DNA from: Oscillospiraceae bacterium
GTDB lineage: Bacteria > Bacillota > Clostridia > Oscillospirales > Ruminococcaceae
Direction of reading: 5' to 3'
Length of the DNA stretch: 64,000 nucleotides
NCBI GenBank assembly: GCA_014799385.1
Contig: JAAVIC010000006.1
Span: 52,037-116,036 of the forward strand
The notes beneath the pieces were generated by a model. It worked only from the letters and a program-made list of their open reading frames with translations, did no database searches and was not told where the DNA came from. Positions within the stretch are counted from its first letter, which is position 1. Each line of letters starts with the position of its first letter. This document shows, piece by piece, positions 1 through 56,948 of this stretch. A program made the position numbers and the translations under genes.

Positions 1-160
1 GATTTTAATAGCAAATTCAAAATCACGCAAACGAGCTGACGCTTGCTTGCGTTTTGAATTTGCACGAATTACCAATAGCTTGTCCTAAATCAGACGCGCT
101 ATGATTTCACTCCAATATGTTGTTGCAAGTTATAACGCGCTGAACTTACGCTCTAAACAT
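1..160 (-). repeat. Modular leader repeat, copy 1 (hairpin plus ~42-bp units); its gene lies left of the window
   Basis: GCAAATTCAAAA...TTTTGAATTTGC inverted repeat with internal hairpin; ends GAATTTGCTATTAAAAT on the minus strand like the other copies. Confidence 0.7.
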
Positions 161-195
161 TGGATTATGGTTATAATTCAATCAACTGTCGGCGA

Positions 196-591
196 TTATG
201 CTTTGAGCGCATTTCTCGGCAATCCCTCAAACAGCGCGTCCAATTCCTCGTAAGTCAATCCGCGGATAAGCGCCCAGCCGTCCTTTTGCGCGAGGAAATA
301 CTTTTCGAGCCGATTCATCGCCTCGTGATATTCTATAATCCCGATGACACTCCAATCCTTTGTTATGCTGACTATGGAGATTATCCACTTGTCTATGTTC
401 TGACCCTCTATCTGCCACTGCTCCTCGGGAACAACCGGGAAAAGCGAATCGGTATCCTCGGTGAGTGCAAAACTCACGATTATGGAATCGTCCTCATCCA
501 TCGTATGTACATGCGGATTAGCTTGATAAGCCTCCTGCCAGCGAGTGTTCAATTCCTCAAAGGGAATTTCCTTTTCGTTTGAATTACCCAT
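196..591 (-). CDS. Small acidic protein, DUF4299 C-terminal-like; paralog of 16650-17033
   Basis: 131-aa ORF; AYQANP...FALTEDTDSLFP...W.ISIVS pattern; long near-identical nucleotide stretch shared with 16663-16750. Confidence 0.7.
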   Translation of the reverse strand: MGNSNEKEIPFEELNTRWQEAYQANPHVHTMDEDDSIIVSFALTEDTDSLFPVVPEEQWQIEGQNIDKWIISIVSITKDWSVIGIIEYHEAMNRLEKYFLAQKDGWALIRGLTYEELDALFEGLPRNALKA

Positions 592-635
592 TATATCATA
601 TCTCCTATTTAATTTATCTTTGCTTGCTTCGGTAA

Positions 636-1316
636 TCAGTGGTTATGCCAATCGGAAAATGTGAAATTCTCGTCCAGCTCGTCATACGCGCCACAAGCTA
701 ACTCGCCGTCCCAACCATCGCCGAACTGGAACGAAAAATATCTGCCCTTGAAATTCAGATATTCGGGCTTAATCTTCTTGATGAACAAATCCAGATTGAA
801 CATCGGATACATCTCGCGGATCTTCGCTTCGACGTCGGGTTTTTCCACCGACCCGTCATTGGGCGAATCGTCAAAATAATCATACAAGTCGGAAATCTGC
901 TCATCGCCGTAAACCAAATCGTCCAGCTCCTCCTCATCGTGGGATTTCAGGAACTTCTTATCCGTCAGCCCGTCCAGCTCCCAGAACGGATAGCCGCAGC
1001 CTTCCATATCCATAAAGAGGTTGAACAGAATGTTGTCGTTTATCTGCTTTTCGTTCTCGGCGGCGCGCTTTTCAAGCTGATTGAGGTACTCCTCAAGCCC
1101 CTTGGCGATCTCCTCTGGCTCGTCCGACTTTATGAACGGCAGCAGCGGACCGACCCATTCTTCGTCGCGCTCCTGTATGTTCTCAAGTATATCCTCGTCA
1201 ATTGTAATTGCTTCATCGTCAAAGCTCTTGTTCTCGTAGGTGCCCGCGATTCCGAGCTTGAACGTGCCCTTAGCCTTGTACTTCTCTTCTTCCTTGTCAT
1301 AAATAACAGTCAACAT
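636..1316 (-). CDS. Very acidic hypothetical protein (226 aa, immunity-protein-like)
   Basis: Start moved to ATG 1316 (AGAAAGGA RBS) because a TTGACA-N17-TACAAT promoter overlaps the ORF-track start at 1388. Confidence 0.7.
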   Translation of the reverse strand: MLTVIYDKEEEKYKAKGTFKLGIAGTYENKSFDDEAITIDEDILENIQERDEEWVGPLLPFIKSDEPEEIAKGLEEYLNQLEKRAAENEKQINDNILFNLFMDMEGCGYPFWELDGLTDKKFLKSHDEEELDDLVYGDEQISDLYDYFDDSPNDGSVEKPDVEAKIREMYPMFNLDLFIKKIKPEYLNFKGRYFSFQFGDGWDGELACGAYDELDENFTFSDWHNH

Positions 1317-1378
1317 ATTGATTGTCCTTTCTGTGCAAATTTCTTGTTGCGTCGTATAAATGAAATACTGCTGTTCAT

Positions 1379-1407
1379 ATTGTAGCATATAATTTGACGT
1401 TTGTCAA
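1379..1407 (-). promoter_or_regulatory. Sigma-A promoter for 636-1316
   Basis: TTGACA-N17-TACAAT on minus strand. Confidence 0.65.
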
Positions 1408-1454
1408 GTGCTTTTTCACAAAAATAAAATATTCCGAAATATTGTTTTTTCCCC

Positions 1455-1483
1455 TTGACAATCCAAGCCAAAAACTGTATAAT
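1455..1483 (+). promoter_or_regulatory. Sigma-A promoter for the pullulanase gene
   Basis: Perfect TTGACA-N17-TATAAT. Confidence 0.8.
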
Positions 1484-1496
1484 AATTATAAGTAGC

Positions 1497-1700
1497 TTGG
1501 GATAACCCCAAAGCAGCCCCTTAGGGGGAACACGCAAATCCTAACCGTGTGCGGTTTCGGATTTGCCATTCAAAACTTGCAAATCTGAAATGCGAGCGTT
1601 GCCGAACACCGAAGGTGTGAGGTAAAGCTCAGCAAGATCAGATGAAATCCGCTCTGCGGATTTCATCTGATCGGTTTCTGATTTGCCATTCAAAATAGGA
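1497..1700 (+). repeat. Modular leader repeat, copy 2 (two hairpin modules) fused to the pulA RBS
   Basis: GCAAATCC...GGATTTGCCATTCAAAA occurs twice; the second runs into ATAGGAGG-N3-ATG. Confidence 0.75.
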
Positions 1701-55238: not shown

Positions 55239-55266
55239 TGTGTTTTCCTCCTATGTAGTTTCAATA

Positions 55267-55911
55267 TTAAGTCTTTCCGACAAGTAGCTTCAGAATCGCC
55301 GTTGCGTCTGCGGCGGTTACTTTGCCGTTCTGATCCATATCGGCATTTACGCTGCCCATATAGGATAGTTCCATTATACCCGCCAAGTGTTTAAGCACCG
55401 CTGTTGCGTCCTCGGCGGTCACTTTGCCGTCGCAGTTAGCGTCGCCCTTTTTCCAAGTCGGAGCGGGTGTGGGAGTAGGAGTAGGCGTTGGGGTGGGCGT
55501 AGGGGTAGGAGTTGGGGTAGGAGTAGGGTCAGGTTCGGGAGTAGGTTCGGGTATGAAATCCCAAACCACAGAAACAGTTACGTGTTTTGCGGGCATTGTA
55601 AACGTTGTGGTAAACGTTGAAGTACCGCTCGAATAGAGTTGTCCGTTAATATAAAGATTATTATACCTGCAGCCCGCAGCGGGCGTCACGGTCACGGTTA
55701 TGGTTTCGCCCGGGGAAATATCCCGGGTTTTGCTTACAGACAATGTCCCGGAGGGCTGTTGGATTCTGTCTCCATACTTGGGGTAAGATGTAATGCTGTT
55801 GATTGAATAAGTTTGGGTGCTTCCCGCAAACGCTGTCGCGCTGAAAGAGTTTGCCGCAACAATTGCCGAAAGCGCGGCTGCCATAATTGCCTTTTTACTC
55901 TTGAATTTCAT
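55267..55911 (-). CDS. Secreted dockerin protein 2 (type B leader, one repeat, long PT linker)
   Basis: Same architecture; ends KLLVGKT. Confidence 0.88.
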   Translation of the reverse strand: MKFKSKKAIMAAALSAIVAANSFSATAFAGSTQTYSINSITSYPKYGDRIQQPSGTLSVSKTRDISPGETITVTVTPAAGCRYNNLYINGQLYSSGTSTFTTTFTMPAKHVTVSVVWDFIPEPTPEPDPTPTPTPTPTPTPTPTPTPTPAPTWKKGDANCDGKVTAEDATAVLKHLAGIMELSYMGSVNADMDQNGKVTAADATAILKLLVGKT

Positions 55912-55938
55912 TGTTTCTCCTCCCGTACGGTTTCAAAA

Positions 55939-56583
55939 TTACGACTTGCCTACAAGTAACTTCAGAATCGCAGTTGCGTCTGCGGCGGTTACTTTGCCGT
56001 TTTGATCCATATCAGCATTTACGCTGCCCATATAGGATAGTTCTGTTATGCCTGCCAAGTGTTTGAGTACCGCTGTTGCGTCCTCGGCTGTTACTTTGCC
56101 GTCACAATTTGCGTCGCCCTTTTTCCAAGTGGGAGCGGGAGTTATGGGAGGCTGCTCCGGAGTAGGCTCGGGTGTGGGATCGGGAGTAGGCTCAGGTGTA
56201 GGTTCGGGCACGGGTGCATAATCCCAAATTGCGGTTACGTCCACATCAGCATCAGGCATTTGGAAACATGCGGTATATTGAGTTGTTATATCGCTGGCAA
56301 GAGTCTGTTTGTTCCCATTGTACTCAAGAATTATTTTTGCTTGGCAGCCGGGATAAGGTTCTACTGTTATTTCTACGATTTCGTCTTCGCAGACTTGAGC
56401 TTTATTGGTATTTATACGTCCGCCTCTAGTTACATGTTCGTTTGCGGGCGTATTTGGAATACGTGAATGAAGTTTAACATTATGTTCGGTTTTTTCCGCC
56501 AATGCAACTGTATTGAACGAACCCACCGCAACGATTGAAGCAAGCGCGGCTGCTATAATTGACTTTTTGCCTTTGAATTTCAT
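55939..56583 (-). CDS. Secreted dockerin protein 1 (type B leader, one repeat)
   Basis: Start ATG 56583 after CAGGAGGA RBS; same architecture. Confidence 0.88.
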   Translation of the reverse strand: MKFKGKKSIIAAALASIVAVGSFNTVALAEKTEHNVKLHSRIPNTPANEHVTRGGRINTNKAQVCEDEIVEITVEPYPGCQAKIILEYNGNKQTLASDITTQYTACFQMPDADVDVTAIWDYAPVPEPTPEPTPDPTPEPTPEQPPITPAPTWKKGDANCDGKVTAEDATAVLKHLAGITELSYMGSVNADMDQNGKVTAADATAILKLLVGKS

Positions 56584-56664
56584 TGTGCTTTCCTCCTGTG
56601 CAAAAGAACAGAACCAATTTCCTGTGTAAGCTATATTGCAGTACAATATATCTTTTTAAGATGT

Positions 56665-56693
56665 ATTATAACACAAGAAAGCTGTCTTGTCAA
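56665..56693 (-). promoter_or_regulatory. Promoter of dockerin operon 1
   Basis: TTGACA-N17-TATAAT; flanks resemble those at 54492-54560. Confidence 0.8.
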
Positions 56694-56812
56694 TATATTT
56701 TCCTTAAATTTCATTAAATATTTTTATAGGAAAATCGCTGTATACCGCGAAATTCTATTTACAGCATTTGAAATAATTGGAAAACTTTTTCCGAAAAAAT
56801 TCACAAAAGGAC

Positions 56813-56841
56813 TTGCATTTTGTGAAATGTTGTTGTATAAT
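56813..56841 (+). promoter_or_regulatory. Promoter of the EF-G paralog
   Basis: TTGCAT-N17-TATAAT with TG extension. Confidence 0.7.
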
Positions 56842-56902
56842 AGTTATAAAGTTCCTGATTCTTACCAACCAACAAGGAATTAACGAATTATTTTCAACTG
56901 AA

Positions 56903-56948
56903 AGGGGTGAAGTGCAAATTCGGCAATCCACCGAATTTGCTATTAAAA
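56903..56948 (+). repeat. Modular leader repeat, copy 11 (minimal hairpin) directly before the ATG
   Basis: GGGGTGAAGTGCAAATTCGG-CAATCCA-CCGAATTTGCTATTAAAA-ATG. Confidence 0.7.

What the first reader, a model, noticed from the sequence alone, without database searches (positions are those of the whole stretch)
1..56948. Eleven-copy modular hairpin family fixed at the gene-proximal end of 5' UTRs, usually supplying the RBS
Seen: copies at about 1-160, 1497-1700, 7855-7960, 14624-14800, 26768-26843, 38563-38696, 39485-39698, 41085-41312, 44485-44573, 47948-48275 and 56903-56948. The full layout is up to three ~42-bp units (ATAGCGC...AAAGC...GG(T/A)GA(T/C/A)(T/G)(C/T)GTGC), then a GCAAAT(T/C)C...GA(A/T)TTTGC stem carrying interchangeable nested GC-rich hairpins, then YATTHAARAT running straight into AGGAG or ATG. 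All ten copies whose gene lies in the window point towards it and abut its translation start, although the genes are unrelated (pulA, smpB, padR, MCP, aminotransferase, EF-G2). Known: BOX, RUP and REP elements are modular and dispersed but are mostly not locked to the RBS. Inference: a mobile or domesticated leader module that changes mRNA stability or translation initiation.
Basis: partly seen in the sequence, partly recalled or inferred. Interest (0 to 1): 0.68.

Follow-up and report, generated by a model that had tools for sequence, protein, structure and literature searches.

The report
Folded repeat abutting ribosome-binding sites
About one gene in twelve in this uncultured gut-type Clostridia genome is preceded, always in the same orientation and about 11 bases before its ribosome-binding site, by a copy of one folded non-coding repeat, which looks like a spreading "leader cassette" kept because its RNA form favours expression.

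Summary
A covariance model finds all 11 listed copies. The 2.69-Mb genome has about 300 matches in front of 223 genes (8%), and none truly points at a gene's 3' end.

Each copy has three parts:
- one to three ~42-nt "module A" units;
- a 90-120-nt three-way junction, with a 12-bp closing stem and two hairpins with three-base loops;
- an A/U-rich tail, YATTWARATAA.

The junction ends 10-12 nt before the GGAG core. Pairing covaries strongly (97% of cells paired; 27 of 38 pairs with double changes). G-U mismatches outnumber A-C 7:1 on the mRNA-sense strand, whatever the replication direction, so the fold is probably selected in RNA.

The family was detected only in five small clades of one genus, each with its own stem consensus. 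About 70% of sites are shared with a species at about 81% DNA identity. Filled versus empty sites show that the resident Shine-Dalgarno is usually kept, so the element abuts the RBS rather than supplying it.

No transposase, target duplication, Rfam, phage or plasmid match was found.

Best reading: a transposase-less, mobile or once-mobile leader cassette that acts as an RNA insulator and stabiliser.

No look-alike sequence exists in earlier notes of this scan; analogous RBS-linked repeats were noted in other genomes.

The parts
1..149 (-). Copy 1. The tail is at 1-10, the closing stem with one inner hairpin at 11-63, and a module A unit at about 64-149. The target gene lies off the window to the left, behind a further tandem element.
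   Evidence: CM hits 1-108 and 109-149; sequence read.
1486..1702 (+). Copy 2. A tandem pair: a degenerate module A with a short closing-stem hairpin (1486-1577), then a full three-way junction with tail (1578-1702). It lies downstream of a canonical TTGACA-N17-TATAAT promoter at 1455-1483. The pullulanase ATG is at 1706.
7855..8001 (-). Copy 3, before a 152-aa gene of unknown family (7391-7849, TTG start, G-rich SD).
14624..14798 (-). Copy 4, a full canonical copy (163 bits), before an NTP-transferase gene (13713-14618).
26734..26848 (+). Copy 5, a reduced copy with the closing stem and one hairpin. It is intercistronic. The tail runs directly into the ATG at 26844 of a metallo-beta-lactamase-fold gene, with no SD.
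   Evidence: (E 0.01)
38563..38690 (-). Copy 6, before the aspartate aminotransferase gene (start 38556).
39454..39699 (+). Copy 7. Three module A units (about 39454-39582), then the three-way junction and tail. The smpB ATG is at 39704. A promoter-like site lies at 39400-39428.
41114..41314 (+). Copy 8. Two module A units and a full three-way junction. The RNA fold is -78.6 kcal/mol (z -7.1) with the RBS left unpaired. The padR ATG is at 41322.
44511..44572 (+). Copy 9, a junction-less form. Module A is joined directly to ATTTGC and the tail, which looks like a deletion of the palindrome. It lies before a DUF4097 gene (ATG 44580).
   Evidence: the same joint form is seen in G024 (case 58).
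47949..48233 (-). Copy 10. Two tandem three-way junctions (47949-48054 and 48055-48233) before a methyl-accepting chemotaxis protein gene (45538-47943).
56874..56956 (+). Copy 11, module A remnant with a closing-stem-only hairpin. The tail runs into the ATG at 56949 of an EF-G paralog, with no SD.

Best explanation
This is a lineage-specific family of composite non-coding repeats that lie inside transcripts. Each copy has one to three module A units of about 42 nt, a 90-120-nt three-way-junction palindrome, and an 11-nt A/U-rich tail.

Shown:
- Every copy is in the sense orientation of the gene downstream.
- Each ends 10-12 nt before that gene's Shine-Dalgarno core.
- Copies occur in 5' leaders behind ordinary promoters and in spacers inside operons, including before rpmD, adk and rpmJ.

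Inferred, on spread: the family spread, and still turns over, by a process that needs no classical transposase. The right-hand junction falls at the Shine-Dalgarno, the one short sequence all genes share. The left-hand junction varies. There is no target duplication, and the modules are mosaic. This pattern fits copy-choice or microhomology-mediated recombination between leaders better than cut-and-paste transposition.

Inferred, on function: copies are retained because of what the RNA does. A very stable, self-contained three-way junction followed by an unpaired A/U-rich stretch would keep the ribosome-binding site single-stranded and insulated from upstream sequence. It would also act as a barrier to exonucleases. 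That barrier would protect the downstream cistron from 5'-to-3' decay and the upstream one from 3'-to-5' decay, possibly after endonucleolytic processing at the junction or tail.
For: Position and orientation:
- There are 304 matches and none truly points at a 3' end.
- The distance from the junction end to GGAG is 10-12 nt in 150 of 173 copies, and to the start codon 19-23 nt in 139 of 173.
- 223 genes (8.3%) carry a copy, as do 213 of the 1064 genes with an upstream spacer of at least 120 nt.

Structure:
- 97.2% of cells are paired, against 78.5% in shuffles and 32-44% in slid controls. 27 of 38 pairs have double changes.
- One copy folds at -78.6 kcal/mol, z -7.1.

RNA-sense strand:
- G-U-type mismatches number 179 against 26 A-C-type. 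The sense fold is the more stable in 148 of 160 copies.
- Loops are GCA, GAA and AAA on the sense strand, and their complements are rare.
- The bias is the same for genes on the leading strand (113:18) and the lagging strand (46:5). Element genes show no replication-strand preference, 73.7% against 73.9%.

Transcribed, not a terminator:
- In 81 of 161 co-directional cases, less than 60 nt of spacer is left outside the element.
- Copies lie inside the ribosomal-protein operon.

Retention and constraint:
- 28 of 40 sites in one direction and 27 of 52 in the other are shared with G024, at about 81% DNA identity.
- In orthologous pairs, the closing-stem arms are 83-84% identical, the tail 70%, the interior 54% and module A 53%, against 84% for flanking coding sequence. 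Interiors still fold.

Age: nearest-neighbour identity among copies has a median of 85%, and only 7 copies reach 95%.

Expression link:
- Codon adaptation is 0.612 against 0.573, p 5e-18.
- Predicted unpaired probability of the SD is 0.56 against 0.41, p 5e-16 for the whole RBS window.

Spread without a classical transposase:
- No Y1 transposase in this genome, and one in only 1 of 11 carrier genomes.
- No target duplication or flank covariation.
- No longer, gene-carrying copy was found. The one DDE (IS3-like) transposase gene has unrelated ends.
- The right junction is at the resident SD in 7 of about 10 clean pairs.
Against: Transcription through the element, any processing, and any effect on stability or translation are therefore all inferred.

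- Copies are not independent. Part of the strand bias and loop bias could be inherited from master copies rather than selected afresh.
- C-GNA-G three-base loops are, from my own knowledge, classic extra-stable DNA hairpins. This leaves room for a single-stranded-DNA stage.
- The codon-bias link could reflect an insertion preference for highly transcribed genes rather than benefit.
- The patchy phylogeny and clade-specific consensus are what selfish repeat families show.
- The template-switch mechanism rests on about ten junctions. Several 'empty' sites turned out to be reduced copies (cases 29 and 35).
Confidence: 0.5

Rival explanations
1. A selfish, non-autonomous mobile DNA of MITE or REP type. 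An unidentified enzyme integrates it, in one orientation, just 5' of Shine-Dalgarno sequences. The hairpins are kept because the mobility machinery needs them, possibly as single-stranded DNA. The host merely tolerates the copies.
For: - Presence differs between related species at the same site.
- Carrier genomes form five separate small clades, each with its own closing-stem consensus.
- The family was not detected in 150 genomes from 97 other genera of the order.
- Copies never occupy neutral 3' intergenic space, which argues for targeting rather than random insertion followed by selection.
- C-GNA-G three-base loops dominate.
Against: - No Y1 transposase in 10 of 11 carrier genomes.
- No target duplication and no full-length partner.
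- Few near-identical copies, so there has been no recent burst.
- About 70% of sites are retained at about 81% DNA identity, with folds intact although interiors are only 54% identical.
- The strand bias follows transcription, not replication.
- Copies are associated with high codon adaptation.
Confidence: 0.25
2. A shared operator. The junction, tail or module A is the binding site of one clade-specific RNA-binding protein or small RNA. The roughly 220 genes would then form a post-transcriptional regulon.
For: - The position next to the RBS is fixed.
- The closing-stem ends and the tail are conserved in sequence while the interior is free to vary.
- A clade-specific consensus would fit co-evolution with a binding partner.
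- Module A is conserved in sequence but has no conserved fold, and it carries GGTGA and GTTATAAC motifs.
- TAACTGA repeats just upstream of start codons were interpreted this way (PMC4679880).
Against: - The downstream genes have no functional theme. They include pullulanase, SmpB, PadR, a chemotaxis receptor, an aminotransferase, ribosomal proteins and Adk.
- No candidate partner was identified.
- Copies vary greatly in size, from the closing stem alone to tandem junctions, which is odd for a defined operator.
Confidence: 0.12
3. A portable promoter. Module A carries a -10-like box, and in tandem it also supplies a -35-like box. Each cassette would then be a promoter plus leader that creates new transcription starts, also inside operons.
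For: - Module A contains GTTATAAC, close to the local extended -10 consensus (TGTTATAAT-type promoters, families D11 and D14).
- Tandem units give TTGGCG-N17-TATAAC.
- Half of the co-directional spacers leave under 60 nt for any other promoter.
- The family meets the operational definition of 'putative mobile promoters' (PMC3575422).
Against: - The box ends in C at -7, where T is, from my own knowledge, nearly invariant.
- The -35 scores upstream of module A barely exceed the genome background.
- In the window, canonical promoters lie upstream of the module A arrays at 1455-1483, 39400-39428 and 40953-40996.
- The upstream modules of the other clades have no such box.
Confidence: 0.08

Closest known systems
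REP / BIME / REPIN elements with RAYT transposases (Enterobacteria, Pseudomonas)
   Same: - Hundreds of palindromic, GC-rich, co-transcribed extragenic repeats per genome.
- Species-specific consensus.
- Mosaic and tandem arrangements.
- Known to stabilise adjacent mRNA by blocking exonucleases (own knowledge; review context in PMC2817692 and PMC3184786, listed).
   Different: - REPs are 20-40-nt single hairpins. They lie mostly after genes or between convergent genes, in both orientations, and have a cognate Y1 (RAYT) transposase.
- Here the unit is a 170-nt composite with a three-way junction. It is strictly before genes and in one orientation.
- No Y1 transposase was found in 10 of 11 carrier genomes.
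Correia (NEMIS/CREE) elements of Neisseria and ERIC elements of enterobacteria
   Same: - 100-150-nt elements bounded by inverted repeats, in hundreds of copies.
- Often co-transcribed with the downstream gene.
- The hairpin is processed by RNase III or modulates mRNA stability, and some copies carry promoters (own knowledge; cited as promoter-bearing mobile repeats in PMC3575422).
   Different: - Correia elements insert at TA with a duplication, occur in either orientation and at variable distance from the gene, and are a simple long hairpin.
- This family has no duplication, a single orientation, and a fixed spacing of 10-12 nt to the SD.
Mycobacterial interspersed repetitive units (MIRUs)
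   Same: - Repeats sit in intercistronic spacers of operons.
- They are oriented with the genes and often tandem.
- Their ends touch the stop and start signals of the flanking genes (own knowledge of Supply et al. 1997).
- In this family, module A sometimes supplies the upstream stop codon and the tail sometimes runs into the ATG.
   Different: MIRUs are 46-101-bp direct repeats thought to encode tiny coupled ORFs, not a covarying RNA junction. There is no sequence relation, and the phylum is different.
Putative mobile promoters / 'promoter reuse' (Matus-Garcia, Nijveen and van Passel 2012; PMC3575422)
   Same: - Highly similar upstream regions in front of unrelated genes.
- The mobilisation mechanism is unknown.
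- Some are leader RNAs rather than promoters.
   Different: That survey found mostly pairs of near-identical sequences at -150 to -50. Here about 220 genes share one structured family that is anchored at the RBS and old (median nearest-neighbour identity 85%).
TAACTGA heptamer repeats of Beggiatoaceae, Cyanobacteria and Bacteroidetes (PMC4679880)
   Same: - More than 150 sets per genome.
- Most lie within a few nucleotides upstream of start codons of unrelated genes, including ribosomal-protein operons.
- The phylogenetic distribution is patchy and no spreading mechanism is evident.
   Different: Those are unstructured 7-nt direct repeats that replace canonical RBSs. This family is a large folded element that abuts a canonical SD.
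Intercistronic RNase III sites of phages T7 and SP82, 5' stabiliser stem-loops of Bacillus mRNAs, and the plastid intercistronic expression element (PMC2230500)
   Same: This is a likeness of function only. All are stable hairpins placed between cistrons, just upstream of an RBS, that yield stable, translatable units (own knowledge; PMC2230500 was seen only in the list).
   Different: Those are single-locus signals with demonstrated processing. Here processing is untested, and the element is a dispersed repeat family.

Membership tests
REP/REPIN-RAYT | A cognate Y1 (IS200-like, RAYT) transposase gene in the genome, flanked by the repeats. | tested here: not met
   PF01797 gives no match in this 99.9%-complete genome. 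It is absent from 9 of 10 other carrier genomes. The single hit, in G010, has no element-like flanks.
REP/REPIN-RAYT | Short single palindromes, found largely after genes and in both orientations or as inverted doublets. | tested here: not met
   Every copy points at a gene start. The unit is a three-way junction with flanking modules.
   The closing stem can be read as inverted repeats. However, the flanks are conserved element parts (module A and the tail) and show no direct-repeat signal; mutual information is at most 0.26 bit.
   No pair of arms encloses a gene. PF13610 gives only a sub-threshold hit to an IS3-like gene with unrelated ends. Relatives are fragmented MAGs, so a partner could be unassembled.
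Described RNA family (Rfam 15) | A match to a curated covariance model. | tested here: not met
   There are no gathering-score matches in the window. At E up to 1 over 38500-48400, nothing falls on any copy.
Putative mobile promoters (operational class) | At least 80% identity over at least 50 nt in the upstream regions of non-homologous genes. | tested here: met
   Nearest-neighbour identity has a median of 85% over about 110 nt, in front of unrelated genes. The copies reach closer to the start codon than the -150 to -50 window used in PMC3575422.
MIRU-like intercistronic repeats | Located in operon spacers and oriented with the genes. | tested here: met
   In 81 of 161 co-directional cases the element fills the spacer. 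Copies lie before rpmD, adk and rpmJ.
MIRU-like intercistronic repeats | Small ORFs within the repeat whose ends overlap the flanking stop and start codons (translational coupling). | not tested
   Only anecdotal overlaps were seen: a module A TAG used as the upstream stop, and the tail running into ATG. No systematic ORF analysis was done.
Self-cleaving three-way-junction ribozymes (hammerhead and others) | A conserved unpaired catalytic core at the junction. | tested here: not met
   The junction has at most 1-4 unpaired bases, and there is no Rfam ribozyme match.

The most novel reading that the evidence does not exclude
This would be a new class of bacterial repeat: a structured RNA leader cassette that copies itself from gene to gene without a transposase. 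The Shine-Dalgarno sequence itself would serve as the shared landing or crossover point. The cassette would then have been domesticated as a genome-wide module that sets mRNA stability and ribosome access for about 8% of genes, independently amplified in at least five lineages of one genus.
Probability: 0.25. Interest if true: 0.82.

Novelty: new variant of a known kind. Interest (0 to 1): 0.66.

Why it matters
If the reading holds, one non-coding module shapes the expression of roughly one gene in twelve in a group of uncultured gut or rumen-type Clostridia. That set includes ribosomal-protein, translation-factor and carbohydrate-degradation genes.

It would be a natural counterpart of the engineered RBS insulators and mRNA stabilisers used in synthetic biology, and could be tested directly as a portable part for Firmicutes.

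It also bears on an open question: how do promoter-proximal and leader sequences spread between unrelated genes when no transposase is present? Here the junctions point to the Shine-Dalgarno as the crossover site, which can be tested with strain-level genomes.

On the practical side, these repeats probably help fragment assemblies of the carrier species, for example the 420 contigs of G024. They can also be mistaken for riboswitch-like regulators of single genes.

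Tried and rejected
- **RAYT or IS200/605 partner.** Rejected. PF01797 is absent from this genome and from 9 of 10 other carrier genomes. The one hit has unrelated flanks.
- **TnpB.** There is only a weak zinc-ribbon hit inside a 601-aa ORF. I did not pursue it.
I found no target duplication. 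The tail is absent from true empty sites, so it is not target DNA. The PF13610 hit is an IS3-like gene with unrelated ends.
- **Longer, gene-carrying copies.** A search for arm pairs 340-4000 nt apart returned only neighbouring elements.
- **Reverse transcriptases.** These are present in carrier and non-carrier genomes alike, so they are uninformative.
- **Replication-linked single-stranded-DNA model.** Rejected. There is no leading-strand enrichment, and the G-U bias is the same on both replication strands.
- **Terminator.** Rejected. There is no U-run, and many copies fill operon spacers whose downstream gene must be read through.
- **Module A as an RNA hairpin.** RNAalifold gives no consensus fold over 77 copies.
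- **Module A as a promoter.** Kept only as a weak rival.
- **Tail as a general RBS context of this organism.** Rejected. Genes without the element show no such motif.
- **Other searches.** Rfam, phage and plasmid collections and earlier scan notes by sequence gave no match.
- **Organism name.** The single genome-contig scan returned only 'uncultured Clostridia bacterium' MAG. It was also run with the wrong protein, because the 7391-7849 gene is not SmpB.

Full report
**Observation**

The repeat family is real.

I laid out the whole genome (2.69 Mb, 33 contigs, 47.6% GC). A simple stem pattern and an nhmmer profile of 122 canonical copies then found 304 matches. A covariance model built from 25 copies (22 outside the window, 3 from it; alignment A1, model R1) recovers all eleven window copies, including the reduced ones.

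**Anatomy**

Reading 5' to 3' on the strand of the downstream gene, a copy has three parts.

- Module A. There are one to three units of about 42 nt, with 146 matches genome-wide and tandem spacing of 40-48 nt. Module A contains the palindrome GTTATAAC, an A/C-rich stretch and GGTGA. It has no conserved fold.
- A three-way junction.
  - Its 12-bp closing stem starts with an invariant GCAAAT, and the next six pairs covary.
  - It encloses a long hairpin and a shorter one, with almost no unpaired junction bases.
  - Of 341 hairpin loops, 254 have three bases, mostly C-GCA-G, C-AAA-G and C-GAA-G.
- The tail, YATTWARATAA.

The junction ends 10-12 nt before the GGAG core in 150 of 173 copies, and 19-23 nt before the start codon in 139 of 173.

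Several size variants exist:
- the closing stem alone (window 56874-56956);
- a single inner hairpin;
- tandem junctions (1486-1702 and 47949-48233);
- extra nested hairpins;
- a junction-less joint of module A to the tail (44511-44572).

Together the repeats cover about 40 kb, or 1.5% of the genome.

**Is the structure real?**

On the structure-blind MAFFT alignment A1, 97.2% of cells form standard pairs. The figure is 78.5% in column shuffles and 32-44% when partners are slid by one to three columns. 27 of 38 pairs show changes on both sides. One full copy folds at -78.6 kcal/mol (z -7.1) and leaves the tail, SD and start codon unpaired.

**Position and orientation**

I made my own gene calls, because no gene finder was available (2675 genes, 86% coding).

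- 295 of 304 matches point at a gene start.
- Six fall in probable mis-called short ORFs or mis-placed starts.
- Three appear to point at a 3' end. They are antisense matches to the palindromic core of copies whose flanks show the normal orientation.

No true exception was found.

223 genes (8.3%) carry at least one copy, as do 213 of the 1064 genes with an upstream spacer of 120 nt or more.

The apparent failures to find an ORF after a copy are tandem copies or very short genes: rpmJ, rpmH and rpmD.

The downstream genes in the window are unrelated. They are a pullulanase, an unknown protein, an NTP-transferase, a metallo-beta-lactamase-fold protein, an aspartate aminotransferase, SmpB, PadR, DUF4097, a chemotaxis receptor and an EF-G paralog.

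**Leader or spacer?**

Both occur. In the window, canonical TTGACA-N17-TATAAT promoters lie upstream of the module A arrays, so there the element is 5' UTR. In 81 of 161 cases with a co-directional upstream gene, however, less than 60 nt of spacer lies outside the element. Copies also sit inside the ribosomal-protein cluster, before rpmD, adk and rpmJ. The downstream gene can then only be expressed by read-through. The junction is therefore part of the mRNA and is not a terminator.

**Which strand folds?**

Single mismatches inside stems are G-U type 179 times and A-C type 26 times on the mRNA-sense strand. The sense strand folds more stably in 148 of 160 copies. Loops are GCA, GAA, GTA and AAA on the sense strand, and their complements are rare.

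Element genes are no more often on the GC-skew-inferred leading strand than other genes (73.7% against 73.9%). The G-U bias is the same for leading-strand genes (113:18) and lagging-strand genes (46:5). The asymmetry therefore follows transcription, not replication, which favours a fold selected in RNA.

There are two caveats. Copies share ancestry, so the counts are not independent. Also, C-GNA-G loops are, from my own knowledge, a hallmark of very stable DNA hairpins.

**Distribution**

R1 finds the family in 13 of 61 sampled genomes of the same genus. It finds it in none of 150 genomes from 97 other genera of the order. A strict sequence pattern finds it only in G000 and G024.

Other carrier species have the same architecture with their own closing-stem consensus. 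The types are GAATTTCCCGCAAG (G006, G058), GAAATTTCAAAAATC (G010, G073) and GCAATTCGCGAAAG (G059). Their tails are of the TTTTAAATAA type.

On a SecY+Adk tree of 30 genomes, the carriers fall into five separate, well-supported small clades interleaved with non-carriers. This means either several gains or transfers, or an old origin with many losses. R1 was trained on one species, so 'not detected' is weaker than 'absent'.

**Turnover**

G024 is the closest relative held, with about 81% DNA identity in aligned blocks.

- 28 of 40 G024 elements with an orthologous downstream gene have a G000 element at the same site.
- Conversely, 27 of 52 G000 elements have a G024 element at the same site. Some of the 25 'empty' sites there are tandem artefacts or reduced copies.

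Region by region, 23 orthologous element pairs compare as follows:

| Region | Identity |
|---|---|
| Closing-stem arms | 83-84% |
| Tail | 70% |
| Interior | 54% |
| Module A | 53% |
| Flanking coding sequence | 84% |

The two inner hairpins are often of different length or type in the two species, yet fold in both. Within G000, the nearest-neighbour identity of cores has a median of 85%, and only seven copies reach 95%. The family is therefore old and has had no recent burst. Its stems stay nearly perfect while its sequences drift or are exchanged.

Closing-stem type, tail type and flanks assort independently. The copies are therefore mosaics.

**Junctions**

In cleanly comparable pairs (G000 filled, G024 empty), the SD and the spacer down to the start codon are homologous in cases 29, 35, 36, 192, 209, 217 and 231. 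The difference begins directly 5' of the SD. In cases 32 and 34 the whole spacer, including the SD and in one case the first codons, differs. In case 239, and at window 26843 and 56948, the tail runs into ATG with no SD.

Cases 29 and 35 turned out to be reduced copies in G024, so deletions and resizing also occur.

The left junction varies. It can fall right after the upstream stop codon, with module A's TAG sometimes serving as that stop. It can also fall a few bases after a conserved promoter and its first transcribed bases (cases 170, 192 and 217; case 10).

The secY-adk spacer holds an element in G000, G067, G074 and G059. It holds none in G024 or six other carrier genomes. Most non-carriers have an unrelated small hairpin there.

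Genes without the element have no tail-like motif before their SD. The tail therefore belongs to the element.

**Mobility machinery**

None was found.

- PF01797 is absent from G000 and from 9 of 10 other carrier genomes. The G010 copy has unrelated flanks.
- No target duplication was seen.
- No gene-carrying long copy was found.
- The only DDE hit is an IS3-like gene with unrelated ends.
- Reverse transcriptases do not track the element.
- There are no phage or plasmid matches.

**Link to expression**

This evidence is indirect. Element genes have higher codon adaptation to the ribosomal-protein set than other genes (0.612 against 0.573, p 5e-18). The difference also holds against other genes with long upstream spacers (p 5e-12). 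In partition-function folds of -180 to +40, the SD is predicted unpaired with probability 0.56, against 0.41 in controls. For the whole RBS window the values are 0.53 against 0.44 (p 5e-16).

**Interpretation**

Shown: this is a dispersed, old, lineage-restricted, structured repeat that lies within transcripts. It is always in sense orientation and ends at the 5' edge of the RBS.

Inferred:
- The fold matters in RNA. It most plausibly acts as an insulator and exonuclease barrier, combined with an A/U-rich standby stretch. This would suit both 5' leaders and operon spacers, and would fit the association with highly expressed genes.
- The family spreads and is reshuffled by recombination or template switching between leaders, with the SD as the common crossover point. 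This fits the fixed right junction, the variable left junction, the mosaicism, the lack of duplications and the lack of a transposase. It rests on few junctions.

The main rival is a selfish element integrated by an unknown SD-directed enzyme. It is favoured by the patchy phylogeny, the clade-specific consensus and the complete avoidance of neutral 3' intergenic space.

**Comparison with known systems**

The family works most like REP/BIME, Correia and ERIC elements (co-transcribed palindromic repeats that affect mRNA fate) and like phage or plastid intercistronic hairpins. It fails the defining tests for REP-RAYT and for DDE-type MITEs.

It shares orientation and operon-spacer placement with MIRUs. 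It shares start-codon locking, patchy distribution and unknown mechanism with the TAACTGA repeats (PMC4679880). It meets the operational definition of putative mobile promoters (PMC3575422). It matches no Rfam family.

Earlier notes of this scan hold no look-alike sequence. They do describe analogous RBS-linked repeat families in other genomes. One of them, e1-1359952, gave the IS6 and target-duplication lead that I tested here, with a negative result.

**Limits**

- No transcript data were available.
- My gene calls are home-made.
- Relatives are mostly fragmented MAGs.
- The G024 comparison covers 349 kb.
- Absence calls depend on a model trained on one species.

Noticed in passing
G000 C10:11153-11270, C9:70055-70250, C9:71772 region, and just left of the window (C6:about 51950-52037): A second, longer subfamily co-exists in the same genome. 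Its closing stem is AAATCC/AAATTC-AAAAAG, and it has inner hairpins of the ACTCAAAATTCGC...GCGAATTTTGAG type. Its tails follow GGAATTTC or GGATTTT. It resembles the GAAATTTC type of other clades and often sits in tandem with the main type.
   Followed up: partly
window 9533-9647, 32598-32711, 34116-34231: A different three-copy repeat (families D8 and D18) lies next to promoter-like sites. It is unrelated to this family and is the subject of other notes of this scan.
   Followed up: no
window 9252-9280, 9671-9699, 24680-24708, 29933-29961, 35799-35827, 39400-39428, 40953-40996: Promoters in this organism are strikingly canonical: TTGACA, a 17-nt spacer with TG, then TATAAT. Repeat finding alone picks them up (families D11 and D14).
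   Followed up: partly
L100 (G002:C3), secY-adk spacer, 128 nt: A non-carrier species has its own unrelated repeat at the site where G000 holds the element. The repeat is built of GGCGGC-N-ACAG-like units that form hairpins. Most other non-carriers have a conserved spacer of about 78 nt with a small hairpin. This suggests that some structured RNA is generally kept between secY and adk.
   Followed up: no
G000 C25:97448-97490 versus L021 (G024): A kinase-like gene (MKNIVLIGMPAVGKST...) has a G-rich SD in G024. In G000 the element tail runs straight into its ATG with no SD. The same happens at window 26843 and 56948. These genes may be translated without a Shine-Dalgarno.
   Followed up: partly
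G000 C1:196141-196253 and C1:213977-214089: Two copies of the 112-nt core, 18 kb apart and in front of different genes, are 100% identical. This is the only such pair, and it suggests a recent copy or conversion event.
   Followed up: no
G000 C10:1-165: The contig starts with an odd G-rich stretch (runs of GGGG and CCCC forming long hairpins) directly upstream of a gene that carries the element in G024. The element tail (AATTAAAATAAGGAGG) is still present without the junction.
   Followed up: no
G000 C1:145207-146025 and C25:16215-16649: Reverse-transcriptase domains are present. One lies in a 647-aa frame with an in-frame TGA, and one in a 1057-aa frame. An IS3-like transposase gene lies at C25:19379-20557.
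   Followed up: no
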